Positions 7,021 to 44,999 of a DNA stretch of 64,000 nucleotides are shown here, piece by piece (the first letter of the stretch is position 1; the number at the start of each line of letters is the position of its first letter). The translations under genes and the position numbers were made by a program. Below the pieces are notes generated by a model. It was given only the letters and a program-made list of their open reading frames with translations, was not told where the DNA came from and did not search any database. Source of the DNA: Nitrosopumilus sp. (GTDB lineage Archaea > Thermoproteota > Nitrososphaeria > Nitrososphaerales > Nitrosopumilaceae); assembly GCA_018263505.1 (NCBI GenBank), contig JAANXA010000014.1, positions 4,319 to 68,318 on the forward strand. The letters run 5' to 3'.

Positions 7021-7350
7021 TTATTTTATTCTGACTTCATGAATTGCAGTTGCATAATCACATGTTGCCTTTAATCTCATATATGGAATTAATTTAAAAT
7101 GGATTGAATAGATATTTTTTTCCTTTAACAAAATTCCTTTTTGTAGTAATGATGCCAATCCTCTTGATGGAATATTAATTGAAATATTTTTTTCCTCACA
7201 AATTTTTTGTCTTTTATTTTGAAATTGTTTTAGTGTAAATGTAACATCATTGATTTCTAAAATTAATGGCCAAATAATTTTTGCCCACACAAATCTTCTA
7301 TTTTCTGTAGCTGATGCATACTTGCCTTTTTCACTCAACATTAATAACAA
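7021..7350 (-). CDS. hypothetical protein (109 aa)
   Basis: Only an ORF in an otherwise unoccupied interval. No recognisable motif. Confidence 0.4.
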   Translation of the reverse strand: MLLMLSEKGKYASATENRRFVWAKIIWPLILEINDVTFTLKQFQNKRQKICEEKNISINIPSRGLASLLQKGILLKEKNIYSIHFKLIPYMRLKATCDYATAIHEVRIK

Positions 7351-33873: not shown

Positions 33874-34346
33874 TAAAAATGGCAAATGCAGTCCTCGTTG
33901 TTAGAATTAAAGGTCAAGCAGACTGTCCATATTGGGCAACTCATACTATGGAACTTTTAAAATTAGATAAAAAATACCGTGCAACTATTCTCCCATCAAA
34001 AGATAATTTGTTGGGAATGCTAAAAAAAGTACAACATTATGTATCTTGGGTAGATCTTGATGTGGATTTGGCAAAAGAATTGATTGATAAAAAAGCACGA
34101 AAATCTGGATATCAAAAGATTAATGATGATGATCTTAAAAAACTAGGATTTGCTAACTCTGAAGAATTGGCAACAGCTTTGAGTGAAGGAAAAACAATGT
34201 TATCAAAACTAAAACCTCTAAAACCTTGGTTTGCATTAGCACCACCAAGACATGGCTTTAAGAGAAGTACAAAGAAATTGTATGGACAAAAAGGTGTTTT
34301 GGGAAGAAACAAAGAACTTGGAACTATTGTAAGGAATATGATTTAA
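33870..34346 (+). CDS. rpl30: 50S ribosomal protein L30 (uL30)
   Basis: AVLVVRIKGQ... pattern. ATGA overlap with the S5 stop. Confidence 0.9.
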   Translation: MIKMANAVLVVRIKGQADCPYWATHTMELLKLDKKYRATILPSKDNLLGMLKKVQHYVSWVDLDVDLAKELIDKKARKSGYQKINDDDLKKLGFANSEELATALSEGKTMLSKLKPLKPWFALAPPRHGFKRSTKKLYGQKGVLGRNKELGTIVRNMI

Positions 34347-34347
34347 C

Positions 34348-34794
34348 ATGGCAACTCGATTAAGAAAAACTAGAAGACTTCGCGGTGGACGACATATGGG
34401 ATGGGGACAAGTAGGTCAACATCGTGCAAGTGGTCACAAGGGAGGTCTTGGAATTACTGGTATGCAAAAACATCACTACAGTACATTATTGAAAGAAGAT
34501 CCAGATCATTATGGTCATGATGCACCTAAAACCCCTCATCCAAATATAATAAAAAAATGGGCAAGTATTCGTGACTTAGATGATTTGTTTGCAACCTTTG
34601 GAAAAGAAGAAGGTGGAAAGAAAATTGTGGACCTTCAAAGTGCAGGTTATGATAAACTTCTTGGTGGCGGGAAGATAACTAATGCATATTCTGTCAAAAT
34701 ATCTCAATTCACAGCATCAGCTGAAGAAAAATTAAAAGCAGTTGGAGGAGAAATCGTTCAATCTGTAACAAAAGAAAATACTACTGAGGACTAG
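34348..34794 (+). CDS. rpl15: 50S ribosomal protein L15 (uL15)
   Basis: TRRLRGGRHMGWGQVGQHRASGHKGG N-terminus. Confidence 0.93.
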   Translation: MATRLRKTRRLRGGRHMGWGQVGQHRASGHKGGLGITGMQKHHYSTLLKEDPDHYGHDAPKTPHPNIIKKWASIRDLDDLFATFGKEEGGKKIVDLQSAGYDKLLGGGKITNAYSVKISQFTASAEEKLKAVGGEIVQSVTKENTTED

Positions 34795-34807
34795 GTGTTA
34801 ACTGATC

Positions 34808-36238
34808 ATGGCTGAGGGCACAATTACTTCAATTATTCGAAAAGTAGTTTTCAAAGCAGAACCTTACCTTCCACAAGTCCCTAAACCTAAAAAGAAAATT
34901 CCTCTTCCAACTAGATTGCTATGGTGTGGAGTTGCATTACTCATTTACATGGTTATGGGACAAACCCCGTTATTTGGAGCAACAGCTCCTCAATTTGATT
35001 TCCTAGCTTTTGCTAGAGTTATTTTTGCATCCCAACAAGGTACCCTTGTTGAATTAGGAATTGGACCTATTGTAACTGCAGGATTATTAATGCAATTGCT
35101 TAGAGGTTCAGATATTTTGAAATTTGACTTTAAGAAGCCTGAAGAACGAGGAATTTTTCAGACTGCAACAAAACTAGTTACTTACATTGTAATTGTAGCT
35201 GAATCTATTGTATATGCAGCAGCAGTTTATGGTCCTGGAGTTTCCGAACCATACTTTTTGTATGTGATGATAGGCCAACTCATGGCCGCATCTATCATGA
35301 TCATGTTCTTAGATGAATTAATTCAGAAAGGTTGGGGTCTTGGTAGTGGAATTAGTTTGTTCATTATGGCCGGTGTTGCTCAACAAATTCTCTGGAGTAT
35401 GTTCAGTCCATTACCTGCTGGTGATGGTGGAACTATTGGAATTATACCCTATATTGCACAATCTATAGCTGGTGGAGATGTATCTAATATATTATTCCGT
35501 TCAAATCAACTCCCTAGTATCTTTGGATTGAGTTTAACTGCTGGAGTCTTGTTGATTCTTGTATTTGTTCAGGGAATGAAAGTTGAAATTCCAATTGTAT
35601 CTACAAAATATAGAGGATTTTCAGCAGTTTATCCTATCAAATTGATGTATGTATCTAATATCCCTGTAATTTTGGCATCTGCTCTTACTGCGAATGCTGT
35701 TTTCATGTTCCAGATGTTATGGGCAAACATGAATCCACGTAACAATAATTTCTTTATGAATTTTATAGCACAATTTGATCCTACCAGTCCATCTACCCCG
35801 ATTGGAGGTTTAATTTACTATATCACTCCTCCAAGAGGACTTGATGTTGCAGCATTGGATCCTGGACGTGCTGTGGGGTATGTTTTGTTTATGATTGGAA
35901 TTGTAGTTGTATTTGGTAGATTGTGGGTTGAACTTGGAGGTTTGTCGCCAAAAAGTGCTGCTCAGAATTTGCTTGATGCAGATGTACAAATCCCTGGGTT
36001 TAGAAGATCAAACAAACCAGTTGAAGCATTACTAAACAAGTACATTCCATCAGTCACTATTATTGGATCTATGATTTTGGGTCTATTGGCCGGTGTTTCT
36101 GATGTTTTAGGTGTATTTGGTTCCGGAATTGGAATTTTACTTATGGTAGATATTCTCATCAACTATTATACACAATTAGTTAGAGAACAAGTAGAAGTTG
36201 TAATGCCGCGATTGGGTGCTTTACTTGGAAGAAAATAA
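34808..36238 (+). CDS. secY: preprotein translocase subunit SecY
   Basis: 476 aa, ten TM segments, GIGPIVTAGLLMQLL motif. Confidence 0.95.
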   Translation: MAEGTITSIIRKVVFKAEPYLPQVPKPKKKIPLPTRLLWCGVALLIYMVMGQTPLFGATAPQFDFLAFARVIFASQQGTLVELGIGPIVTAGLLMQLLRGSDILKFDFKKPEERGIFQTATKLVTYIVIVAESIVYAAAVYGPGVSEPYFLYVMIGQLMAASIMIMFLDELIQKGWGLGSGISLFIMAGVAQQILWSMFSPLPAGDGGTIGIIPYIAQSIAGGDVSNILFRSNQLPSIFGLSLTAGVLLILVFVQGMKVEIPIVSTKYRGFSAVYPIKLMYVSNIPVILASALTANAVFMFQMLWANMNPRNNNFFMNFIAQFDPTSPSTPIGGLIYYITPPRGLDVAALDPGRAVGYVLFMIGIVVVFGRLWVELGGLSPKSAAQNLLDADVQIPGFRRSNKPVEALLNKYIPSVTIIGSMILGLLAGVSDVLGVFGSGIGILLMVDILINYYTQLVREQVEVVMPRLGALLGRK

Positions 36239-36803
36239 GAAAATCATATTGGTAGGAATACCTGGTGTTGGTAAAACTAGTCTGTTGTCTCAAGTGGTTG
36301 AGTCTCTAAAAGAAAAAAATAAAGTTGTCAGTGTTGTCAATTATGGAACTTTGATGTTTGATGTTGCAAAAGAAAATGGATTGAAGGATAGAGATAATTT
36401 ACGAAAATTACCTGTTGTGGAACAACAAAAACTTCAAAAAATTGCAGCTGAAAAAATTGCTGCTCATGATGAAGAAATCACAATAATTGATACTCATGCA
36501 TTTATCAGTTCTCCTGAGGGGTATTATCCTGGATTACCTGAACATGTTTTAAAAATTATTCAACCATCTAATTTTGTTTCAGTAGCTGCAAAACCTGAAG
36601 AAATCTATAACAGACGAATGAAGGATGAATCACGAGATAGAGACAAAATTACATTAATCAATATCAAAAAAGAGTTAGAATATCAAACTGGAATGATCTC
36701 TGCATGTGCTGTAATAACAGGTGTTCCTGTCAGACACATTCTTAATGGAGAGGGAAAGATTGATGAAGCAGCAAATAAGATAATTAATGCAATAGGACTG
36801 TGA
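36216..36803 (+). CDS. adkA: archaeal-type adenylate kinase
   Basis: P-loop VGIPGVGKTS. Conserved secY-adk position. Exact start uncertain (GTG at 36216 overlaps the secY end). Confidence 0.85.
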   Translation: MLYLEENKKIILVGIPGVGKTSLLSQVVESLKEKNKVVSVVNYGTLMFDVAKENGLKDRDNLRKLPVVEQQKLQKIAAEKIAAHDEEITIIDTHAFISSPEGYYPGLPEHVLKIIQPSNFVSVAAKPEEIYNRRMKDESRDRDKITLINIKKELEYQTGMISACAVITGVPVRHILNGEGKIDEAANKIINAIGL

Positions 36804-36806
36804 AAA

Positions 36807-37436
36807 ATGGATTTTAACTTTATACTACTCTTTATTGATTCGGCCTTCTTACAACTTCCCGACTTTCTTGGAGGTGATGGAAGAATGGCTTTGGGTAGTG
36901 ATGATCCAATAATCAAAGGATTAATCATCTCTATGTTTGCAGTGACTGGGTTTGGTGTTTTACTAAATATCTTCAATTCTGCAGTTAGGAAAAAAATGGT
37001 TGATCAAACAAAACTAAAAAGAATAATGAAAGAAACCCGTGGTTGGCAAAAAGAAAGAATGGCTGCAATGAGAGCTAAAGACACTGCAAAGACTGCTGAA
37101 TTAAACAAAAAATCATCTTACATGAACAAAATGTCAATGGAAATGATGCAGATGAATATGAGACCTATGATGATCACCTTTGTTCCATTGATTTTGATAT
37201 TTTATCTTGTGTTGCCACAACTGTTTACATACACTGTAGCTATTTCCCCAATACCTCTAAATGTAATTCCTGGTGAGATGTTCCAATTAACATGTACTGC
37301 AGCACAAGCTGCAGATTCAGAACATGTGTGTACTGAAGAAAATGCATTATTCCTTTGGGCTTGGTATTTTCTTTCATCTATTGCATTTAGTGGAATTATA
37401 ATGAGACTAACTAAAACCTCAATGGATCTCAGTTGA
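36807..37436 (+). CDS. DUF106 / EMC3-TMCO1-like membrane protein (archaeal YidC/Oxa1-superfamily candidate)
   Basis: TM, then coiled-coil (KLKRIMKETRGWQKERMAAMRAKD), then an M-rich segment and further TMs. Conserved position between adk and cmk. The start may instead be the internal ATG at 36885. Confidence 0.7.
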   Translation: MDFNFILLFIDSAFLQLPDFLGGDGRMALGSDDPIIKGLIISMFAVTGFGVLLNIFNSAVRKKMVDQTKLKRIMKETRGWQKERMAAMRAKDTAKTAELNKKSSYMNKMSMEMMQMNMRPMMITFVPLILIFYLVLPQLFTYTVAISPIPLNVIPGEMFQLTCTAAQAADSEHVCTEENALFLWAWYFLSSIAFSGIIMRLTKTSMDLS

Positions 37437-37993
37437 CAAAATCTATTGTTATTTCTGGACCTCCAGCTGTGGGAAAAACAACTGTTGCAAAAGGATTAGC
37501 TGAAGAATTTGAATTAAAATATCTTAGCGGCGGTGATGTTCTAAAAGAAATGGCAAAAGATCATGGTTTTGATTCTCAAGGTGATGATTGGTGGGATACT
37601 CAAGATGGCATGAAATTTCTTAACCAGCGTGAAGAAAATTCTGAATTTGACAAAAAATTAGATAAAAAATTAATTGAATTATTCAATGAAGGCAAAATGG
37701 TAATCACTAGTTATACATTACCTTGGTTGATTAAAGATGGAATAAAAATTTGGTTGGAAGGCTCCCGTGAAAGTAGTACCAAAAGAATGCAATCTCGAGA
37801 TAATATGAGTTCAGAAGATGCCTTTGCAATTACAAAACAACGATTTGATAAGAATAAGGCATTATACAAAAAATTATATGATTTTGATTTTGGTGATGAT
37901 AAATCTGTCTTTGATGTGATAATTAACACTGATAATCTTACTGCAAAACAAGTAATTGATGTTGCAAAAGAGACTGTGAGAAAATTATTATGA
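37433..37993 (+). CDS. cmk: archaeal cytidylate kinase
   Basis: P-loop ISGPPAVGKTT. Position after adk-DUF106. Apparent TTG start. Confidence 0.85.
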   Translation: MTKSIVISGPPAVGKTTVAKGLAEEFELKYLSGGDVLKEMAKDHGFDSQGDDWWDTQDGMKFLNQREENSEFDKKLDKKLIELFNEGKMVITSYTLPWLIKDGIKIWLEGSRESSTKRMQSRDNMSSEDAFAITKQRFDKNKALYKKLYDFDFGDDKSVFDVIINTDNLTAKQVIDVAKETVRKLL

Positions 37994-38991
37994 CTTTAAA
38001 ACAACTTGAAAATTTAATCGAAGTTGATCAGGATTTTACTGATGATGCATATGGAACTTATTATGATAAAAGAACTATTGAACAGTTACTTAATTATGGA
38101 ATTATACTTTTAGACAAACCTCCTGGCCCTACAAGTCATGAAACTGTGGCTTGGACAAAAAGAATTCTAAAATTGCCCAAAATCGGCCATAGTGGAACTC
38201 TAGATCCTCAGGTATCTGGAGTTTTACCTCTGGGATTAGGTGAAGCCACAAAAGCATTAGGCGTTTTACTTTTAGGTCCAAAAGAATACCATGCACTAGG
38301 ACGCGTACATTCACTTCCTTCAAAAGATAAACTCAAAGAAGTAATTGAAATGTTTCAGGGTGAAATCTTTCAAAAACCTCCACAACGTTCTGCAGTGGTT
38401 CGGCAAACAAGAACTAGGACTATTCATGAATTTGAAGTACTAGAACAAAAAGAAAGATTACTCTTAACTCGAGTTTTATGTGAATCTGGTACCTATATTA
38501 GAAAATTATACTACGATCTTGGTGAAATTCTTGGACCTGGTGCAACAATGATTGAACTTCGAAGAACTAGAGTTGATCAATTTCATGAAATTGATGGATT
38601 AGTCACTTTACATGAACTTGCAAATGCATTTGCATTATGGGAGGAAAATAAAGATGATAGTAAACTAATGAAGATGATAAAACCTGTTGAATATGCCTTT
38701 AGTGAATTAAAATCTGTTATAATTCGTGATTCTGCAGTTGATGCACTGTGTCATGGTGCCCAACTTGCAATTCCTGGAATTTTAAAAATATCTCCAAACC
38801 TAAAAAGTGGTGATATAGTTGGAGTTTATACTCAAAAGGGTGAAGCAGTTGCTTTAGCTGAATCCACCATGTCTGAAGAAGAAATTCGTGATGCAACAAA
38901 GGGATATGCTTTTGAAACTAAGAGAATTATAATGGCTCCAAACACATATCCTAAAAAATGGAGAACTAAACCCATCCCTCCTAAGGATTAA
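37990..38991 (+). CDS. cbf5: H/ACA RNP pseudouridine synthase Cbf5 (TruB family with PUA domain)
   Basis: Catalytic motif GHSGTLDPQVSGVLP. C-terminal PUA-like region. Confidence 0.9.
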   Translation: MTLKQLENLIEVDQDFTDDAYGTYYDKRTIEQLLNYGIILLDKPPGPTSHETVAWTKRILKLPKIGHSGTLDPQVSGVLPLGLGEATKALGVLLLGPKEYHALGRVHSLPSKDKLKEVIEMFQGEIFQKPPQRSAVVRQTRTRTIHEFEVLEQKERLLLTRVLCESGTYIRKLYYDLGEILGPGATMIELRRTRVDQFHEIDGLVTLHELANAFALWEENKDDSKLMKMIKPVEYAFSELKSVIIRDSAVDALCHGAQLAIPGILKISPNLKSGDIVGVYTQKGEAVALAESTMSEEEIRDATKGYAFETKRIIMAPNTYPKKWRTKPIPPKD

Positions 38992-39010
38992 TCGGAAATA
39001 ATTTTTAAAA

Positions 39011-39454
39011 TTGTTAGCAAAAAGTCTTGTAATTTTTACTGGTGTTGGATTAATTGCAGGACTCATTTTTGGAATTTATTTAATCGATATCAAAAATACA
39101 GGCCAACTTGTTTTTGTTGATGGAAATTCTATTTCCATTGTAACTGAAAAATCTGATTTTAAATTAGGTGAAGAAATTAAAATTAAAATTATAAATTCTG
39201 GAACCACATCCTTGATATTTTCTGATACTTCACATGTTCTTAGAATTACTGGTCTGTCTGGAATCTTAATGTATACTCCTGATCCTCATACACTTTCTAC
39301 ACTTGAACCTGGAGATGAAATCTCTTTTTCATGGGATCAAATTAAGAATGATGGTGATACTGCATTAGAAGGTCTTTACAAATTATCTACTAGTGCTATG
39401 GACTCATCTGGAAATGTTGTAGAAAAATCCATCACCATCACAATTTGGAAATAA
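39011..39454 (+). CDS. hypothetical N-terminally anchored protein with a beta-rich ectodomain
   Basis: TM helix at residues ~5-25, then a beta-strand-like pattern. No motif recognised. Confidence 0.5.
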   Translation: MLAKSLVIFTGVGLIAGLIFGIYLIDIKNTGQLVFVDGNSISIVTEKSDFKLGEEIKIKIINSGTTSLIFSDTSHVLRITGLSGILMYTPDPHTLSTLEPGDEISFSWDQIKNDGDTALEGLYKLSTSAMDSSGNVVEKSITITIWK

Positions 39455-39522
39455 TTTTTTTGATAACAAAATAACACAATATATAATCAGATTTTTCCAA
39501 TTACATTTGTCGCAAGACTTGT

Positions 39523-39621
39523 GCCGGGGTCGCCTAGCCTGGTAGGGCGCGCGCCTGGAAATAATTAAACCATAAAGCGCGTTCTCGTAAGGGAACGGGA
39601 GTTCAAATCTCCCTCCCGGCG
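39523..39621 (+). tRNA. tRNA-Ser(GGA) with a 15-nt intron at 37/38 and a long variable arm
   Basis: Hand fold: acceptor GCCGGGG/TCCCGGC, D arm GCCT-AGCCTGGTA-GGGC, anticodon stem CGCGC/GCGCG, loop CTGGAA[ATAATTAAACCATAA]A, variable arm TTCTC-GTAA-GGGAA, T arm GGGAG-TTCAAAT-CTCCC, discriminator G. Confidence 0.8.
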
Positions 39622-39623
39622 CC
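39613..39623 (+). repeat. attL core (ctcccggcgcc) overlapping the tRNA-Ser 3' end
   Basis: Exact match to 44989-44999. A GC-rich 11-mer in an AT-rich genome. Confidence 0.7.
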
Positions 39624-39630
39624 TTATAAT

Positions 39631-40962
39631 ATGAATAGTAGGCGCAATGAACAAAATTTTCCCCCCTTAAATCCAACCCAACATCGTATTGGTGTGAAAG
39701 AAAAAGAGAGAGGAATCGACTGGCACAACTCAAAGAGAAGGGCGGAGCTTGCAAAGATGAGAATTCAAAGACGATTCTCAAAAGAAAATACAGCTGTTGC
39801 CTGGAGATTTGTGGACCGATTGAGGCTTGATAACATGTCCTATGGAAGAATTGAAAACTATTCTGGCTCTGTAATCAGAATACTTCATCTCAAAGATGAC
39901 AAAGAAATCAAAGACTGGTCCAAAGAAGAAATTGAAAAAGTACACATGATGATAGCAGACTCGTCATACGAAAATTCGGTCAAAAAAGATACCCTTACTG
40001 CACTCAAAAGGTTCTATCATTTTGCAGTACACAATGAAATTGTTGTCAAATCAAAAAATCAGGAGTATGATCCCAACGTTGCATGGATAACCCCTGGGTC
40101 ATTTCGTGATAAGTTTGAAAAAATACAACCCCGGGATCTTCTCACTGATGAAGAAATACTGCAGCTAATTCAGGCCGTAAAAAAGATTGGAGGAAAATAT
40201 GTGAAAAGAAACATTGCACTCGTATTTGTTCTACTTGAAGGAGCATACCGTCCGGGTGAGCTTCTTAACATTAGGATGGGAGGAATTGAATTTCATAAAG
40301 ACTTTGTGCAAATTCACACTACTGGTAAAACTGGTCCAAAGTCACTTACCCTTGTTGCGTCATACAATCCTCTCAGGGAGTGGTTAAATGAGCATCCAAA
40401 AGATGGCAATCCTTCTGCATTTCTCCTGTATCATGACAATGAAAGCGAGGTCATGAGATACTGGGCACTTGATCATCTCATAAGAAAGGCAAGGGAAAAA
40501 GCTGGAATTACAAAACGTGTATGGCCATATCTGTTTAGACACACGGCATTAACTGAGTATAGCAAAAAGCTAGGAAATATTGCTAAAATTTACGGCAACT
40601 GGTCAAAGGACTCAGACATGCTATCTCACTATGAACACCTTGCAAGCTCAGACCAGCAAGATGCTGTTTTGAAGCTTCATGGTCTTAAAAAAGACGATGA
40701 ACAAAATTCAATCTTGTTTTCCAAAGTCTGCCCTGACTGCAAGCAGCAAAACAGCAGCGACAAGTCGCATTGCATTCGCTGTGGAATGGGACTCTCAAAG
40801 GAGCTTGCACAGGTAAGGCAGGCAATGCTGGAGAAGAGACAAAACTCTGATGTTAAAACACTTGAAAGGAAATTTTCAAAGAAGATAAGGAATCTGGAAT
40901 CATTAATCATAGAACAGCGAAGATTCATCCAACAGCTTGTCAATGACAAGACTGCAAAGTGA
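39631..40962 (+). CDS. int: tyrosine recombinase / phage-type integrase with a C-terminal zinc ribbon and coiled-coil tail
   Basis: Catalytic pattern R207 (GAYRPGELL), R303-H304 (YLFRHTALT), W324, Y334 (LSHYEHL). Zn ribbon CPDCKQQNSSDKSHCIRCG at aa 367-384. Confidence 0.85.
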   Translation: MNSRRNEQNFPPLNPTQHRIGVKEKERGIDWHNSKRRAELAKMRIQRRFSKENTAVAWRFVDRLRLDNMSYGRIENYSGSVIRILHLKDDKEIKDWSKEEIEKVHMMIADSSYENSVKKDTLTALKRFYHFAVHNEIVVKSKNQEYDPNVAWITPGSFRDKFEKIQPRDLLTDEEILQLIQAVKKIGGKYVKRNIALVFVLLEGAYRPGELLNIRMGGIEFHKDFVQIHTTGKTGPKSLTLVASYNPLREWLNEHPKDGNPSAFLLYHDNESEVMRYWALDHLIRKAREKAGITKRVWPYLFRHTALTEYSKKLGNIAKIYGNWSKDSDMLSHYEHLASSDQQDAVLKLHGLKKDDEQNSILFSKVCPDCKQQNSSDKSHCIRCGMGLSKELAQVRQAMLEKRQNSDVKTLERKFSKKIRNLESLIIEQRRFIQQLVNDKTAK

Positions 40963-41051
40963 GGAATTTGAAAAATAAATTGATAGCCATTTTGAGCAGA
41001 CAGAATCATTTCTCAAATAATTTTATTAAGTTAGGAATTTTCCAGTAATAA

Positions 41052-41588
41052 ATGGAAAAGATCAATGAAGATGATGAAAATTTTGATAAAATCAAAATTT
41101 TCTCTTCTGATGATGACAAATTAAAAATTCTTGGAGAACTATTGAGTAACAAATCCAGTAGAGACATCATAAAATTACTGATAGGAAAAGAAATGTACAT
41201 AAACGAGATCGCAAAAAAATTAGATCTCAAAGTAAGTTTGGTAATACATCATTTACAAAAGATGGAAGTAATAGGTCTACTTGAAATTACAAAAAAGAAA
41301 ATTGCCAGAGAAGGAGAAACGCATCGCTTTTTTAAAATCCCGTCAGGAATGTTAATTTTTCCTAAACAATCTGAGGAAGAAGTAAACAATGGTGTTTTAA
41401 AGAAAATTTTCAAAAGGGGAATAAAATTTGCAATTATTGGGTTTGTGGCAGTATTTTCTTGGGTCTATATTCAAAACAGTCCTACAATTTATAGCGAAAA
41501 TGTAAAAGATTATAATTTTACAATTCCTTTAGCAGTGATTTTAATTGGATTGCTTATCGAAAAAATTATAAAAAAAATAAAGAGATAA
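41052..41588 (+). CDS. membrane-tethered ArsR-like winged-helix transcription factor
   Basis: wHTH pattern LKILGELLSNKSSRDIIKLLIGKEMYINEIAKKLDLKVSLVIHHLQKMEVIGLLE, followed by two hydrophobic helices (FAIIGFVAVFSWVYI and IPLAVILIGLLI). Confidence 0.7.
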   Translation: MEKINEDDENFDKIKIFSSDDDKLKILGELLSNKSSRDIIKLLIGKEMYINEIAKKLDLKVSLVIHHLQKMEVIGLLEITKKKIAREGETHRFFKIPSGMLIFPKQSEEEVNNGVLKKIFKRGIKFAIIGFVAVFSWVYIQNSPTIYSENVKDYNFTIPLAVILIGLLIEKIIKKIKR

Positions 41589-41592
41589 ACTG

Positions 41593-42786
41593 CTATAATA
41601 CGGCAGTTGCCCCTAGATGCGTTGATATTCTATCTACTGGTGACCAATATGCTTCATCCCAAAAAGACTGACCTCCGCTAATTACTCCATACAAGCTTGT
41701 ACCTGCAGAGTTTGTAACTGGAGCTCCACTATCGCCGAATGTTATATCCATTGAAGAAGCCTTTACGAGATGGTTTACTTCAGTGCCAAAAGGCCATGTT
41801 CCGTAATAAGCTGTAAAATCAGTATCAACAACAGTTCCCCATACTAGATCAGACTCATCTCCTGACATTAAGACATAGTCACCTGATTGAGAAGATGCGC
41901 TTGTTGTGCTTGATGGATCATATGTACTTCCTGCGGCAAGATAAATTACTTCATCAATGTCACTTGTAGAAGCACCTACAAATGCACAGTCGCAGGAAGT
42001 TCCATCATAGTATAATTCTGCTGTTACTGTTCCAAATGGATTTTGATTACCTGTTGGGTGATACACACTTTGTCCTACATCACCATCCGCGCAATGTCCT
42101 GCAGTAACAAATCCTGGGGCGCCAGATCTTGTTGCCTCAAATCCGAAAGTACAATCACCACTAGTATGTGCTTCAATTGAAGCTCCTCCAATTACTGGAT
42201 CACAATTGTGTCTACTTGTACAAGAAAAAGTTGTTGGTGAATCTCTAAACTTTATGGTGAATGATTCTTCATCAGGGATCAATTCATGCAACTTGTTTCT
42301 TATTTCCGCAACATTTGCTCTATTTTCTGGCGTATCTAGGATCTCAAATGACAGTTGTTTGTTTATTGCATCAGTTCCCATGCCTACTATAGGAATTCCT
42401 GAAAAGTCCGTATTTTCACGAATTTCTGCTAATTCTGCTTGTCTTTCTGGTGCAACATAATATCTGTCATTGTTTTTTTTCTCTATCTCAGCAAATTCGT
42501 CTTCAATTTTAGCCACTTCGGAATTTATTTCTTGAATTCTTTCTATATTTCCAACTGGATCACTTTTTTCAAGCTCTTGTTTTTCTGCTAATAGATGAAG
42601 ACGTTTTTCCATAATTTTAGATACTCTTTTGAGATCTTGTTGTTCTTCTACTGATAGATCAGTTTTTTTGGTTACATCTTTTACTGCTACATTTTCTGCA
42701 TCTGCAAAATGAATTCCAGCTATAGGAATTACTAATGCAACAGTCAAAGCTGCAAACAAAGCAATTTTGAAGTTCTTCGTAGTCAT
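41593..42786 (-). CDS. secreted chymotrypsin-fold serine protease, alpha-lytic/streptogrisin type (S1E), with an N-terminal pro-region
   Basis: Signal anchor MTTKNFKIALFAALTVALVIPIAG. Coiled-coil plus pro-domain-like IVGMGTDAINKQLSFEILD. Triad motifs VTAGHCADG, CDCAFV and GDSGAPV. ATG at 42786 preferred over the TTG-extended ORF. Confidence 0.8.
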   Translation of the reverse strand: MTTKNFKIALFAALTVALVIPIAGIHFADAENVAVKDVTKKTDLSVEEQQDLKRVSKIMEKRLHLLAEKQELEKSDPVGNIERIQEINSEVAKIEDEFAEIEKKNNDRYYVAPERQAELAEIRENTDFSGIPIVGMGTDAINKQLSFEILDTPENRANVAEIRNKLHELIPDEESFTIKFRDSPTTFSCTSRHNCDPVIGGASIEAHTSGDCTFGFEATRSGAPGFVTAGHCADGDVGQSVYHPTGNQNPFGTVTAELYYDGTSCDCAFVGASTSDIDEVIYLAAGSTYDPSSTTSASSQSGDYVLMSGDESDLVWGTVVDTDFTAYYGTWPFGTEVNHLVKASSMDITFGDSGAPVTNSAGTSLYGVISGGQSFWDEAYWSPVDRISTHLGATAVL

Positions 42787-42850
42787 TATTAATTTCCATA
42801 ATTGGAAATCATAAAAGAATTTAGTCAATCCAGATTGAGCTAATTCTTAT
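42776..42850. repeat. left arm of an inverted repeat (perfect 68-bp core 42776-42843)
   Basis: The reverse complement equals 43232-43299 exactly. Seven more matching nt follow a 2-nt indel. Covers the upstream region plus the first four codons of the protease gene. Confidence 0.92.
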
Positions 42851-43222
42851 ATTCAAAACATTAAATTTTCATGCCAAGTGCAAAGAAATTGTAGGAAATG
42901 ATCAATTAGAAAAATTTGTGAAAAAAATTTCTTTCGTCATTCCAAAATTAACATCTGTCATAACTGCCTGGCAGCGAAGCAGTTTATCAAATACAACACA
43001 ACCACACCATAATTGCTAGAAGGTGACTTTCAAATTATAAAGAAAATGCAAGTATCGATACTTTGATTTTTTTTTAACTGAAATATCTGCACTTGTGTTT
43101 GTTACCAACAATCTAAAATACATAAGTTCATCTATAATCGTCTTTTTACGGTGTAGTAACACGATAATGTCAGAACAAATTTTGATAAAACAAACAAAAA
43201 CAATTTTTGAGAAATTCCTATT

Positions 43223-43299
43223 ATAAGAACATTAGCTCAATCTGGATTGACTAAATTCTTTTATGATTTCCAATTATGGAAATTAATAATGACTACGAA
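43223..43299. repeat. right arm of the inverted repeat (perfect 68-bp core 43232-43299)
   Basis: See the left arm. Contains a TATA-like ttttatga 25-32 nt upstream of the ATG at 43289. Confidence 0.92.
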
Positions 43300-44200
43300 A
43301 ACAACAAAAACAATTGCATTGATGTCAATCATTGCGGGCATACTTGTTACTAGTTCTATTGTCCTGAACGCAGTACAAGTGAATGCAGCAGAGATAGAGT
43401 CTCCTAAAAGATACACTGCAGAAATTCTTTCCAGTGAAGTAAAGAATGTGTATTATTCTGGCGATACTAAAGTTCAGCGATTAGAGGTAACTATCAAAGC
43501 CAAAGAACTTCCAACCTTTGAAGAATTAGTTGAAGACAATCAAAAATACTATGATTGGCTAACCTCTAATTTCGGAAAGAGAGGTGAAATGAAGGTAGAA
43601 GAGCTAAAGGCAGAATTGAAGCAAACAGTTGACAATAGACCTGATGTAATGACCGTAAATATGGTTAGAGTAGGAGATCATTCTATTCTATTTGGAGATG
43701 AATCATATGATTCACCAATGGGAAATGCAAAAGATCCAGTAAACATGGTCTTTTATGAAGATGCTACTACCTCTCAAACAGATACTGTTATTGATTCCTA
43801 CGCAGACAATAATTGGGGTGGGGATGGAGTATCACCACAACAATATGTTCTAATCAACAATGTGCCTCATGGAGGAACTTTGGATTGGGTACAAAGTGAT
43901 CATCAACAGTACAAAGGAAACATTGTAGGTCAAAGAGAACATGTACGTTTGTTTGGCGGAGATTATGACACACACAGTGTTTACGATTATTGGTCTGTAG
44001 GTACTGCACATCAAGAAACATGGAATACTTTGTGTCTATGTCATGAGATTGATTCTTGGGAAAATGCTGAATCCGAGCTTAGGAATGATCTGGTCGGTCA
44101 AACTGGTGTAGGGAATGTTGGAACATACAATCAAGGAAATTCAGGTTACTGGCAAGGCGAATACAATAACGGCGTTGCACGTCTAATCGAGCTGACATAA
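43289..44200 (+). CDS. secreted protein of unknown function (His/Trp/Asp-rich C-terminal domain)
   Basis: Signal peptide MTTKTTKTIALMSIIAGILVTSSIVLNAVQVNA|AE. Segments DPVNMVFYED and REHVRLFGG faintly recall LssY_C-type domains, but this is unverified. Confidence 0.6.
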   Translation: MTTKTTKTIALMSIIAGILVTSSIVLNAVQVNAAEIESPKRYTAEILSSEVKNVYYSGDTKVQRLEVTIKAKELPTFEELVEDNQKYYDWLTSNFGKRGEMKVEELKAELKQTVDNRPDVMTVNMVRVGDHSILFGDESYDSPMGNAKDPVNMVFYEDATTSQTDTVIDSYADNNWGGDGVSPQQYVLINNVPHGGTLDWVQSDHQQYKGNIVGQREHVRLFGGDYDTHSVYDYWSVGTAHQETWNTLCLCHEIDSWENAESELRNDLVGQTGVGNVGTYNQGNSGYWQGEYNNGVARLIELT

Positions 44201-44229: not shown

Positions 44230-44532
44230 ATGAAAATAATCATAGCATTTCTAGTCTACGGATTTGTTGTTTCAATTCTAAATAACATATCTATGGAAAA
44301 ATCAGGAGAATACATAATTTACACATTATTGAATTGGCCAGTAGAACATTTATTCATTCCTCCGTCCTTGCTTTATTTTGCAAATGATATGGGTGATGCG
44401 TTACTACAGGATCAAATAATGATTCTACGAACTGTTGTTAGTGTAATATTTTGGGGCATACTTGGTTTCACAATTCATTCAATACGTAGAATTCTCACCA
44501 AAAACACAATCAAAATCAAATCTACGTTGTAG
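44230..44532 (+). CDS. small multi-pass membrane protein (100 aa)
   Basis: Three hydrophobic segments. Starts 30 nt after the preceding gene, on the same strand. Confidence 0.45.
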   Translation: MKIIIAFLVYGFVVSILNNISMEKSGEYIIYTLLNWPVEHLFIPPSLLYFANDMGDALLQDQIMILRTVVSVIFWGILGFTIHSIRRILTKNTIKIKSTL

Positions 44533-44988: not shown

Positions 44989-44999
44989 CTCCCGGCGCC
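44989..44999 (+). repeat. attR core (ctcccggcgcc)
   Basis: Exact copy of the tRNA-Ser 3' terminal 11 nt. Located 3 nt from the stop of the flanking FAD-oxidoreductase gene. Confidence 0.7.

What the first reader, a model, noticed from the sequence alone, without database searches (positions are those of the whole stretch)
42776..43299. Perfect 68-bp inverted repeat duplicates the promoter, 5' end and first four codons of two divergent secreted-protein genes
The reverse complement of 42776-42843 equals 43232-43299 exactly, with 7 more matching nt after a 2-nt indel. Each arm runs from about 57-66 nt upstream of an ATG through codons M-T-T-K of the S1E protease gene (minus strand) and of the unknown secreted protein gene (plus strand). 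Each arm carries a TATA-like ttttatga 25-32 nt before the ATG, which would give near-leaderless transcripts. The two unrelated proteins therefore appear wired to identical promoters and identical signal-peptide starts. The arms flank a 388-bp unique spacer, so the segment is also a formal substrate for site-specific or homologous inversion. Inversion would not change either coding sequence, so any switching effect would have to come from directional elements in the spacer.
Basis: seen in the sequence. Interest (0 to 1): 0.7.

Follow-up and report, generated by a model that had tools for sequence, protein, structure and literature searches.

The report
Twin identical promoters in archaeal mobile element
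Two back-to-back genes for secreted proteins, carried by a small mobile element in a marine ammonia-oxidising archaeon, are driven by two letter-for-letter identical, mirror-image copies of one promoter-plus-gene-start module. Related elements show that recombination keeps the copies identical and has occasionally flipped the DNA between them, but nothing shows that it works as an on/off switch.

Summary
The inverted repeat is real. The arms are 42776-42844 and 43231-43299: 69 nt, 100% identical, 386-nt spacer, unique in the window. Each arm runs from -58 to +11 of one of two divergent genes: an alpha-lytic-type serine protease and an unknown secreted protein. Each arm holds a palindrome (TCAATC-TG-GATTGA), a TATA-like box at -30..-23, a second palindrome and ATG-ACT-ACG-AA.

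The pair lies in a candidate ~5.4-kb element integrated at the 3' end of a tRNA gene. The element comprises an integrase, a membrane-anchored ArsR-type HTH protein, the protease, the unknown protein and a small membrane protein.

The arm is one copy of a promoter/start module found before various secreted-protein genes in related Nitrosopumilus elements. A sister element with a 91% identical integrase at the same tRNA has the same layout but different cargo: a 62-nt perfect repeat and a 392-nt spacer. Its arms differ from the window's at three sites, and each difference is shared by both arms of one element. That is concerted evolution. Its spacer is inverted relative to the shared backbone.

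Nitrosopumilus sp. Nsub carries the spacer, arm and unknown gene at 100% identity, but with the spacer flipped.

Nine contigs of the sister element all show one orientation. So recombination at the arms is shown, but a programmed switch is not.

The parts
39523..39621 (+). Intron-containing tRNA gene. By my own reading it is probably tRNA-Ser(GGA). It is the integration target.
   Evidence: Rfam RF00005, 40.4 bits, E 4e-5; missed by ARAGORN. The anticodon assignment is my reading and was not checked with a tool.
39613..39623 (+). Candidate attL core CTCCCGGCGCC (3' end of the tRNA)
   Evidence: Exact 11-mer found twice in the window, 0 expected in 100 shuffles; first seen.
39631..40962 (+). 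Tyrosine recombinase (integrase), 443 aa, starting 8 nt after the tRNA-end att core
   Evidence: Pfam PF00589, E 5.8e-14. 91% aa identical to the integrase at the same tRNA in L021/L023.
41052..41588 (+). ArsR-family HTH protein with two C-terminal hydrophobic segments; candidate regulator
   Evidence: Pfam HTH_5, E 3.5e-7. The convergent HTH/protease pair is conserved in L010, L014, L015, L021-L023 and L022. The membrane segments are read by eye.
41593..42786 (-). Secreted pre-pro serine protease of the alpha-lytic (S1E) type, 397 aa
   Evidence: PDB sequence hits to lytic endopeptidase and alpha-lytic protease, E 6e-6 to 1e-3, residues 198-373. His231, Asp266 and Ser353 are invariant in 16 homologs.
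42776..42844 (-). Left arm: promoter/start module of the protease gene (-58..+11)
   Evidence: module model R1 scores 66 bits.
42825..42838 (.). Palindrome TCAATCCAGATTGA (upstream operator candidate), left arm
   Evidence: The TCAAT-N4-ATTGA core is kept in seven of the nine aligned module copies (window x2, L016, L014 x2, L009 unk, and L009 relic with one mismatch) but not in L010 or L015.
42809..42816 (-). TATA-like box TTTTATGA of the protease promoter
   Evidence: Mirror image of 43259-43266. Its position matches TATA-like boxes at about -37 to -23 before other genes of the window.
42794..42807 (.). Palindrome TTCCA-N4-TGGAA between the TATA box and the ATG, left arm
   Evidence: only two matches in the window, both in the arms; 0.23 expected.
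42845..43230 (.). 386-nt inter-arm spacer with two distinct ends: the S-end at 42845 and the u-end at 43230
   Evidence: No credible ORF, no Rfam hit, folding z-scores -0.7 and 0.0. 66% identical to the L021 spacer in reverse orientation; the ends are at least 80% conserved and the middle about 50-55%.
43231..43299 (+). Right arm: promoter/start module of the unknown secreted-protein gene
   Evidence: R1 scores 61.8 bits.
43237..43250 (.). Palindrome TCAATCTGGATTGA, right arm
43259..43266 (+). TATA-like box TTTTATGA, -30..-23 from the ATG
   Evidence: compared with other promoters.
43268..43281 (.). Palindrome TTCCAATTATGGAA, right arm
43289..44200 (+). Secreted protein of unknown function (303 aa), no known fold
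   Evidence: No Pfam hit. AlphaFold2 pLDDT 90.7. No PDB or BFVD fold match at E <= 0.001. 125 representative homologs at E <= 0.001.
44230..44532 (+). Small membrane protein (100 aa), always found downstream of the unknown gene
   Evidence: Co-occurs with it in Nsub, L009 and L016.
44989..44999 (+). Candidate attR core CTCCCGGCGCC; right end of the ~5.4-kb element

Best explanation
The two arms are inverted copies of one promoter-plus-gene-start module. The module holds an upstream palindromic operator, a TATA-like box, a second palindrome and a (near-)leaderless ATG ACN start. A family of Nitrosopumilus integrative elements places this module in front of its secreted-protein cargo genes. In the window, the two copies sit back to back in a candidate ~5.4-kb tRNA-integrated element. 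The alpha-lytic-type protease and the unknown secreted protein are therefore transcribed divergently from identical core promoters, presumably under one regulator. The membrane-anchored ArsR-type HTH protein next door is the candidate regulator. The perfect identity is not a fresh accident. Recombination between the arms (gene conversion, with occasional crossover) keeps it. That recombination also inverts the ~390-bp inter-arm segment on evolutionary time scales, and it lets cargo be exchanged exactly at the outer edge of the arms. Shown: the repeat, the module family, concerted evolution of the arms, opposite spacer orientation in related elements, and different cargo behind the same arms. 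Inferred: promoter activity, leaderless starts, co-regulation, the identity of the regulator, and homologous (RadA-type) rather than site-specific recombination.
For: (1) Repeat and anatomy. (2) Module family: promoters of a protease ortholog (L014) and a more distant protease homolog (L010), of unk orthologs (L016, L009) and of other secreted-protein genes align with the arm. They share TATAAGAATT, TCAAT-N4-ATTGA (kept in seven of nine aligned copies), a T-rich TATA region and AATGAC at the start. A sequence model built from these copies retrieves its own training copies at E 1e-10 to 1e-19 (expected by construction). More tellingly, it finds no further copy in the window and it finds copies outside the training set in the JGI loci L019-L023 at E 7.5e-8 to 1.7e-15. 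Those copies precede unrelated secreted proteins: L022 (187 aa, starts MTTKTTKT) and L020 (272 aa, starts MTTKIIKT). (3) Conserved layout: L021/L023 have TruB, a 148-aa gene, the tRNA end, an integrase (91% aa), an HTH protein (72%), a reversed protease-like gene A, a 62-nt perfect arm, a 392-nt spacer, a second 62-nt arm and protease-like gene B. (4) Concerted evolution: window and L021 arms differ at three sites (C/T, A/C and a 1-nt indel). Each state is shared by both arms of one element, while the arms are 69/69 and 62/62 identical within each element. Module copies in direct orientation are only 64-81% alike (L022 64%, L014 69%, L009 81%). (5) Inversion: the backbone of L021 is colinear with the window (15-7495 matches 33953-41462), but the arm-spacer-arm unit aligns in reverse (8780-9314 matches 43307-42777). 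The two distinct spacer ends, told apart by a 2-nt CA indel, have swapped sides. In Nsub the spacer plus arm (418 nt) and the arm plus unk plus membrane-protein gene (1287 nt) are both 100% identical to the window, but the spacer's S-end abuts the unk gene instead of the u-end. (6) Mobile-element context: an 11-nt direct repeat of the tRNA 3' end lies 5.4 kb away with 0 expected. Integrase and HTH are 85-89% nt identical between window and L021, against 72-79% for the flanking host genes. This fits the thaumarchaeal cryptic integrated elements, which have att sites as short as 8 bp and integrate into tRNA genes in 57% of cases (PMC6563490). (7) TATA-like boxes about 23-37 nt before the ATG are seen before several other genes of this window.
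Against: No transcription data are available, so promoter activity, leaderless starts and co-expression are all inferred. The regulator is a guess based on gene neighbourhood. Only two independent elements (window type and L021 type) have the inverted layout. Two separate, recent inverted duplications could mimic concerted evolution, though that needs the same event twice with the same inner boundary. Cargo differs on both sides between the two elements, so 'spacer inverted' is defined relative to the integrase-HTH backbone only. The Nsub contig comes from a metagenome bin and could be chimeric at its left junction. The attR is only 11 nt, no empty site in a related genome was examined, and no second copy of the core was found in the sister-element loci searched (L021, L023).
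Confidence: 0.6

Rival explanations
1. Programmed invertible switch (inverton). The ~390-bp segment between the arms is flipped at appreciable frequency, possibly by the element's tyrosine recombinase. Flipping swaps two different upstream regulatory ends (S-end and u-end) between the two cargo genes, so it changes which secreted protein is made or how it is regulated.
For: Perfect inverted repeats flank a short intergenic segment about 1.8 kb from a tyrosine recombinase gene. Both orientations exist among related elements, once at 100% sequence identity. The two spacer ends next to the arms are distinct and better conserved (at least 80%) than the spacer middle (about 50-55%), so an asymmetric element just upstream of -58 is possible. 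The integrase is more conserved than the neighbouring housekeeping genes. Archaeal invertons are barely explored (PMC10028968).
Against: The TATA-like box, both palindromes and the start codon lie inside the arms, so inversion leaves each core promoter unchanged. The spacer has no ORF, Rfam hit or unusual fold. Nine distinct contigs of the sister element from at least eight samples all show one orientation and mostly run straight through the repeat. The arms (62-69 nt) are long enough for homologous recombination. The integrase sits exactly at the tRNA att site, as an ordinary integrase would. The higher conservation of the integrase is equally explained by recent horizontal spread.
Confidence: 0.15
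2. One-off recent inverted duplication or single conversion event with no continuing process. The promoter and first codons of one gene were copied once onto the other, and the identity simply has not yet decayed.
For: Sharp boundaries of the identical tract. The unk ortholog L016 carries a very similar promoter of its own, whereas the promoter of the protease ortholog L014 is more diverged. This suggests a copy from unk onto the protease. 69 identical bases cannot date the event.
Against: The sister element has the same layout with its own perfect 62-nt arms and the same inner boundary. All three arm differences between the elements are shared by both arms. That would require the same event to happen independently twice, or ongoing homogenisation. 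Orthologs of both genes already carry the module, so the duplication itself is old.
Confidence: 0.15
3. Miniature transposable element (MITE or IS remnant): a 524-bp unit with 69-bp terminal inverted repeats inserted between two genes.
For: Formally it is a short unit bounded by long perfect terminal inverted repeats.
Against: There is no target-site duplication at the outer edges: GAAGTTC on the left, AACAACA on the right. There is no other copy in the window, only one hit in 185,579 species genomes (Nsub, the same locus), and none in the viral or metagenome scans with the 21-mer. The arms contain the start codons and conserved N-termini of both genes, which orthologs without a perfect repeat also have.
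Confidence: 0.02
4. Assembly artefact: a chimeric or fold-back join in the metagenome-assembled genome.
For: The window comes from a MAG. No second assembly of the window-type element spans both arms, so the two-arm arrangement of this particular element rests on one assembly.
Against: Independent short-read assemblies reach the protease-arm junction (five contigs) and the arm-unk junction (L018) and break exactly as expected at a repeat. The same two-arm layout is assembled through, with k=141 and other assemblers, in nine contigs of the sister element. Both reading frames continue as proper signal peptides.
Confidence: 0.03

Closest known systems
Arm-to-arm gene conversion in large palindromes and inverted repeats (human Y-chromosome palindromes, PMC3723533; plastid inverted repeats, from my own knowledge)
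   Same: Two inverted arms are kept (near-)identical within a genome while they diverge between lineages. Inversion of the spacer occurs rarely as a by-product. Both patterns are seen here.
   Different: The scale is 62-69 bp rather than kilobases. The arms are promoters plus the first codons of two unrelated genes. The setting is an archaeal mobile element. The recombination machinery was not identified here.
Invertible promoters / invertons (fimS type; Bacteroides capsule loci; PhaseFinder and PhaVa surveys, PMC10028968)
   Same: A short intergenic segment is flanked by inverted repeats, lies next to surface or secreted-protein genes, has a tyrosine recombinase nearby, and is found in both orientations among relatives.
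   Different: In invertons the promoter lies inside the flipped segment and the repeats are usually much shorter (from my own knowledge). Here the promoters are the repeats, and flipping changes only what lies upstream of -58. No within-population mixture was seen at contig level.
Mycoplasma multigene inversion systems (vsa, vsp, vpma loci with Xer-like recombinase; recalled from my own knowledge, not tested here)
   Same: Several surface or secreted-protein genes in both orientations share conserved 5' ends including the signal-peptide start. They lie next to a tyrosine recombinase gene, and recombination occurs within the shared 5' region.
   Different: Those systems have a single expression site, and inversion decides which gene is expressed. 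Here both genes have complete promoters. Only two genes are involved. Site-specific recombination is not shown.
Cryptic integrated elements of Thaumarchaeota (Krupovic et al. 2019, PMC6563490)
   Same: A small element with an integrase, a wHTH-type protein and hypothetical cargo, integrated at the 3' end of a tRNA gene (intron-containing targets are known), with a very short att repeat.
   Different: As far as I read that paper, it does not describe a twin-promoter unit or secreted protease cargo.
Divergent (bidirectional) promoter regions with a shared operator, such as regulator/target pairs in bacteria and archaea (general knowledge)
   Same: Two divergent genes are probably controlled together through palindromic sites.
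   Different: The usual case is one shared intergenic region. Here there are two complete, identical promoter copies about 390 bp apart.

Membership tests
Inverton / invertible promoter switch | Inverted repeats flank a short DNA segment | tested here: met
   69-nt perfect arms with a 386-nt spacer; 62 nt and 392 nt in the sister element.
Inverton / invertible promoter switch | A directional functional element (promoter, terminator or coding part) lies inside the flipped segment | tested here: inconclusive
   The core promoter motifs are in the arms, not the spacer. The spacer has no ORF, Rfam hit or unusual fold. The two spacer ends are distinct and conserved, so an upstream element cannot be excluded.
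Inverton / invertible promoter switch | Both orientations coexist within one population or clone | not testable with these tools
   No read-level data are available. As a proxy, nine contigs of the sister element from at least eight samples all show one orientation. Both orientations occur only between different elements or genomes.
Inverton / invertible promoter switch | A dedicated recombinase acts on the repeats | not testable with these tools
   A tyrosine recombinase lies 1.8 kb away, but it sits at the tRNA att site as an integrase would. The arms show no similarity to the att core (my reading).
Thaumarchaeal cryptic integrated element (PMC6563490) | Encodes an integrase | tested here: met
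   PF00589, E 5.8e-14.
Thaumarchaeal cryptic integrated element (PMC6563490) | Flanked by a short direct repeat, one copy being the 3' end of a tRNA gene | tested here: met
   CTCCCGGCGCC at 39613-39623 and 44989-44999, 0 expected by chance. The tRNA is from Rfam. No empty site was examined. No second copy of the core was found in the sister-element loci L021 and L023.
Thaumarchaeal cryptic integrated element (PMC6563490) | No viral, conjugative or casposon hallmark genes | tested here: met
   Pfam finds only the integrase, an ArsR HTH domain and weak trypsin-like hits among the five genes.
Thaumarchaeal cryptic integrated element (PMC6563490) | Evidence of mobility independent of the host chromosome | tested here: met
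   Integrase and HTH are 85-89% nt identical between window and L021, against 72-79% for the flanking host genes.
MITE / IS-derived element | Target-site duplication and multiple dispersed copies | tested here: not met
   No duplication at the outer edges. No other copy in the window. One locus in the genome collection.
Concerted evolution of inverted repeats by gene conversion | Arms are more alike within a genome than orthologous arms are between genomes, with derived states shared by both arms | tested here: met
   69/69 and 62/62 within elements. Three fixed differences between elements, each shared by both arms. Only two elements were available.
Peptidase subfamily S1E (alpha-lytic protease / streptogrisin type), for the left gene | Chymotrypsin-fold domain with a His-Asp-Ser triad, similarity to alpha-lytic protease, and a long N-terminal pro-region | tested here: met
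   PDB hits to lytic endopeptidase and alpha-lytic protease, E 6e-6 to 1e-3, over residues 198-373. His231, Asp266 and Ser353 are invariant in 16 homologs. About 165 residues lie between the signal peptide and the protease domain. The Pfam trypsin hits are below the cut-off.

The most novel reading that the evidence does not exclude
The arm-spacer-arm unit is a true archaeal inverton of an unusual design. The repeats themselves are the two promoters. Recombinase-driven flipping of the ~390-bp segment swaps two different upstream control regions (S-end and u-end) between two secreted-protein genes. This would give a mobile element of ammonia-oxidising archaea a heritable, reversible choice of which secreted factor responds to a signal. 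It would be the first such switch in Thaumarchaeota.
Probability: 0.12. Interest if true: 0.75.

Novelty: new variant of a known kind. Interest (0 to 1): 0.45.

Why it matters
Almost nothing is known about promoters, regulators or mobile-element cargo expression in ammonia-oxidising archaea, which have no genetic system. This locus offers a compact, conserved promoter/operator module, found in about a dozen copies and variants across related loci, with a candidate membrane-anchored regulator next to it. That makes a concrete target for in-vitro transcription and DNA-binding tests. It also shows on a very small scale that archaeal mobile elements use a fixed 'expression platform' behind which secreted-protein genes are exchanged: S1 proteases of several subfamilies, an unknown-fold protein, and in strain Nsub a serpin as neighbour. 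Inverted promoter copies are homogenised by recombination, and the DNA between them flips now and then. One relative, Nsub, is a sponge symbiont, so secreted proteases and serpins on such elements may bear on host interaction. If read-level data showed mixed orientations, it would be the first inverton candidate in this phylum.

Tried and rejected
1. MITE/IS reading: rejected. There is no target-site duplication and no other copy, and the arms contain conserved start codons.

2. Assembly artefact: rejected on independent contigs.

3. Functional RNA or small ORF in the spacer: nothing found with the ORF listing, folding of both strands (z -0.7 and 0.0) or an Rfam E-value scan.

4. Exact 21-mer of the arm in metagenome and viral collections: no hit. 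In species genomes it hit only Nsub. The degenerate module pattern found nothing in viral contigs.

5. Protein-based scans of viral contigs for both cargo families: no relatives. blastn of the element against phage records: no match.

6. Function of the unknown protein: Pfam on 47 family members (one stray hit), and PDB and BFVD fold searches with a confident model, all negative.

7. 'Whole cargo block inverted' instead of 'spacer inverted' in L021: not supported. Protease-like A keeps the conserved convergent position next to the HTH gene and is, if anything, closer to the window protease (87 bits) than B is (68 bits).

8. L009 390-aa and L010 407-aa proteins as integrases: no Pfam support, so not claimed.

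9. A further module copy in the window, for example before the HTH or integrase gene: none.

10. Look-up of the window protease by exact sequence, in both the 397-aa and 411-aa versions: not on record.

11. Deriving the Nsub arrangement by a single simple event from the window or L014 arrangements: I could not settle between 'inversion then rearrangement' and 'deletion between direct copies in an L014-like ancestor'.

12. An origin-of-replication reading (the arm dyad TTCCA..TGGAA recalls archaeal ORB half-sites, from my own knowledge) was considered but not tested. Single module copies sit before single genes in other loci, which fits promoters better.
Full report
OBSERVATION. The repeat is in the sequence as described. 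The repeat finder reports arms 42776-42844 and 43231-43299: 69 nt, 100% complementary, 386 nt apart. The arm occurs exactly twice in the window even with three mismatches allowed, and none is expected in shuffled sequence. The ATG of the minus-strand gene is at 42786 and that of the plus-strand gene at 43289. Each arm therefore spans -58 to +11, which covers M-T-T and two bases of the Lys codon. Outside the arms, identity drops at once to 50-60%, except that on the inner side TATAAGA(A) follows a 2-nt indel. Short-read assemblies of a set of public runs confirm both outer junctions. Five contigs coming from the protease side stop 19-30 nt inside the left arm. One contig from the other side stops 30 nt inside the right arm. 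That is how k=31 unitigs behave at a repeat (the value of k is from my own knowledge of Logan).

CONTEXT. The window is from a Nitrosopumilus MAG, going by the name a source gives to the identical protease P0005. Upstream of the pair lie three features:
- An intron-containing tRNA gene at 39523-39621. Rfam finds it; ARAGORN misses it.
- A tyrosine-recombinase gene starting 8 nt after the tRNA-end att core (39631-40962; PF00589, E 5.8e-14).
- An ArsR-family HTH protein with two C-terminal hydrophobic segments (41052-41588).

The last 11 bases of the tRNA, CTCCCGGCGCC, recur once at 44989-44999, directly before an FAD oxidoreductase gene. None is expected by chance in this 32% G+C sequence. This delimits a candidate ~5.4-kb integrated element holding the integrase, the HTH protein, the protease, the unknown protein and a 100-aa membrane protein. 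It matches the 'cryptic integrated elements' of Thaumarchaeota. Those range from 2.6 to 98 kb, have att sites as short as 8 bp, and integrate into the 3' ends of tRNA genes in 57% of cases, intron-bearing ones included (PMC6563490).

The left gene is a pre-pro serine protease. Residues 198-373 match lytic endopeptidase and alpha-lytic protease structures (E 6e-6 to 1e-3). His231, Asp266 and Ser353 are invariant among 16 homologs.

The right gene has no Pfam family. Its AlphaFold2 model is confident (pLDDT 90.7) but matches no fold in the PDB or BFVD. It has 125 representative homologs.

THE ARM IS A COPY OF A FAMILY-WIDE MODULE. Protease orthologs at 77% and 73% identity also start with MTTK. 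The upstream DNA of the 77% ortholog (L014) aligns with the arm and with the adjoining end of the spacer. The unk ortholog at 77% (L016) carries a closely similar promoter of its own: TTCAATCTGGATTGACTAAATTgTTTTATGATTTCCAgTTgTGG.

In L014 a second module copy, 69-71% identical and in direct orientation, lies beyond the HTH gene and drives an ORF starting MTTKTIKT. In L009 two direct copies, 81% identical over the -70..+11 module region and 86% over the 94-nt repeat that the repeat finder reported, precede an unk homolog and an orphan 29-codon signal-peptide ORF.

An alignment of nine copies shows these common parts:
- TATAAGAATT;
- the palindrome TCAAT-N4-ATTGA (kept in seven of the nine copies; not in L010 or L015);
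- a T-rich TATA-like region;
- AATGAC at the start codon.

A sequence model of these copies finds no further copy in the window. A degenerate pattern drawn from the module retrieved five JGI contigs, and the model detects the module in all of them (E 7.5e-8 to 1.7e-15). In those contigs the module precedes other secreted proteins: a 187-aa protein in L022 starting MTTKTTKT, and a 272-aa protein next to a Cas1 gene in L020. TATA-like boxes 23-37 nt before the ATG are seen before several other genes of the window. The box at -30..-23 in the arm therefore fits a (near-)leaderless promoter, but this is inference.

A SISTER ELEMENT WITH THE SAME ARCHITECTURE. Contigs L021 and L023 are colinear with the window from SecY through TruB, the 147/148-aa gene, the tRNA end, the integrase (91% aa) and the HTH gene (72% aa). 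After the HTH gene come, in order:
1. a convergent protease-like gene A;
2. a 62-nt arm;
3. a 392-nt spacer;
4. a second 62-nt arm, 100% complementary to the first;
5. a second protease-like gene B.

The cargo on both sides is only 23-38% identical to the window's protease and unrelated to unk.

Integrase and HTH are 85-89% identical at the DNA level, whereas the flanking chromosomal genes are 72-79% identical. The element is therefore younger than the split of the hosts, which means it moves.

CONCERTED EVOLUTION AND INVERSION. In a four-way alignment of the arms, the window and L021 differ at three positions (C/T, A/C and a 1-nt indel). Every one of these differences is shared by both arms of the same element. 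Arms are identical within each element (69/69 and 62/62) but diverged between elements. That is the signature of homogenisation by gene conversion. In contrast, module pairs in direct orientation are only 64-81% alike. Identical direct repeats would delete the genes between them, whereas identical inverted repeats only invert.

The inner boundary of identity is the same in both elements (ATTAGCTC, next to the 2-nt indel). The outer boundary depends on the cargo: ATGAC in L021 and ATGACTACGAA in the window.

The spacers are homologous (66% overall; at least 80% near the arms and about 50-55% in the middle) but lie in opposite orientation relative to the colinear backbone. The two recognisable spacer ends have swapped sides.

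Nitrosopumilus sp. Nsub, a sponge symbiont (PMC7848895), carries the spacer plus arm (418 nt) and the arm plus unk plus membrane-protein gene (1287 nt), both at 100.0% identity to the window. There the spacer's protease-side end abuts unk, only one arm is present, and a serpin gene is the left neighbour. Recombination at the arms has therefore happened very recently in that lineage, unless that contig is chimeric.

IS IT A SWITCH? The core promoter motifs lie inside the arms, so flipping leaves them unchanged. The spacer has no credible ORF, no Rfam match and no unusual fold. Nine distinct contigs of the sister element, from at least eight samples and several assemblers, all have the same orientation and nearly all run through the repeat. 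That argues against frequent flipping. The one hint of asymmetry is that the two spacer ends just upstream of -58 are distinct and better conserved than the middle. Archaeal invertons have hardly been surveyed: one study reported 12 candidates in 42 datasets, none of them thaumarchaeal (PMC10028968). I therefore keep the switch as the minority reading (about 0.12-0.15).

MECHANISM PREFERRED (confidence 0.6). This is a twin-promoter expression platform of a mobile-element family. Two identical, divergent, probably leaderless promoters with the same palindromic sites co-express two secreted proteins. The conserved, membrane-anchored ArsR-type HTH protein is the candidate regulator, because it always lies next to the protease gene and, in L014 and L022, directly beside a module copy. 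Homologous recombination between the arms keeps them identical, occasionally inverts the spacer, and allows cargo to be replaced at the arm edge. The structural and evolutionary statements are shown. Transcription, regulation and the recombination pathway are inferred.

COMPARISON AND NOVELTY. The behaviour is that of palindrome arms kept identical by gene conversion, with rare spacer inversion (Y-chromosome palindromes, PMC3723533). The anatomy resembles an inverton, and it resembles the Mycoplasma multigene inversion loci (recalled, not tested). It fails or leaves open their defining features: a directional element inside the flipped segment, a single expression site, and mixed orientations within one population. 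The carrier fits the thaumarchaeal cryptic integrated elements. I rate it a new variant of known kinds, of moderate interest (0.45).

Noticed in passing
window 43289-44200 (and homologs P0002-P0004, P0035-P0158): The unknown secreted protein belongs to a family of 125 representative clusters. Its AlphaFold2 model is confident (pLDDT 90.7) but has no fold match in the PDB or BFVD and no Pfam family. D149, P150, W176, H218, H241 and H252 are invariant, which might mark a metal site. A ~100-aa membrane protein gene follows it in every locus seen.
   Followed up: partly
L001 (Nitrosopumilus sp. Nsub, LQMW01000023) 7070-7340: A dense array of palindromic iterons GGCTAATTTAGG / GGCCTAATTTAGG lies in an intergenic region about 2 kb from the shared block. 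Its function is unknown; an origin- or partition-like site is possible.
   Followed up: no
L001 8158-9456 versus window 41593-42786: In Nsub a serpin (PF00079, E 2e-102), which is an inhibitor of S1 proteases, sits divergently from the unknown gene where the window has an S1 protease. The serpin does not carry the module.
   Followed up: partly
L009 8944-9033: An orphan 29-codon ORF that encodes only a signal peptide (MTYKNAKTMKIVLFASLIAAIVIPTSAYQW*) lies behind a full module copy. It looks like a relic of cargo loss or exchange.
   Followed up: partly
L019 329-1186 and L020 1065-1931: A Cas1 homolog (PF01867, E 7e-35 in L020) lies next to a module-driven secreted-protein gene. This may be a casposon-type element carrying the same promoter module.
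   Followed up: no
N-termini of P0004, P0008, P0016, P0028, P0030, P0031, P0033, P0036, P0037; L001 12034-12954: One signal-peptide type, M(T)TKN.KTILFASLIAAMILPFS, recurs in many members of the two unrelated families (protease and unknown). In L009 and L010 about 120 nt of signal-peptide coding DNA is ~88% identical (by eye from the alignment) between an unk homolog and a protease homolog on different contigs. This suggests exchange of 5' ends or a lineage-specific secretion signal.
   Followed up: partly
window 39523-39621: An intron-containing tRNA gene is detected by Rfam but missed by ARAGORN. The integrase start codon lies 8 nt after the tRNA-end att core (39623).
   Followed up: yes
L010, L011, L012 (contigs of 51.0-51.7 kb from three metagenomes); L009 (76 kb): Contigs of almost the same length and gene order, full of small unannotated ORFs, were recovered from three different metagenomes and carry the protease/HTH pair. 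They may be complete viral or plasmid genomes of Nitrosopumilales.
   Followed up: no
window 41052-41588 and homologs in L010, L014, L015, L021-L023, L022: An ArsR-type HTH protein with two predicted membrane segments is always convergent with, and at most about 40 nt from (in L010 overlapping, in L014 with an 80-aa ORF between), an S1 protease gene, even when the proteases are only 26-30% identical. A membrane-bound regulator paired with a secreted protease might form a signalling pair.
   Followed up: no
L023 6616-12496, L024, L026, L031: No second copy of the att core CTCCCGGCGCC was found within about 6 kb to the right of the sister element's cargo in L023, the locus searched. The right flank (282-aa, 92-aa genes and so on) is unrelated to the window's right flank. 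That element is therefore longer or its attR is degenerate.
   Followed up: partly
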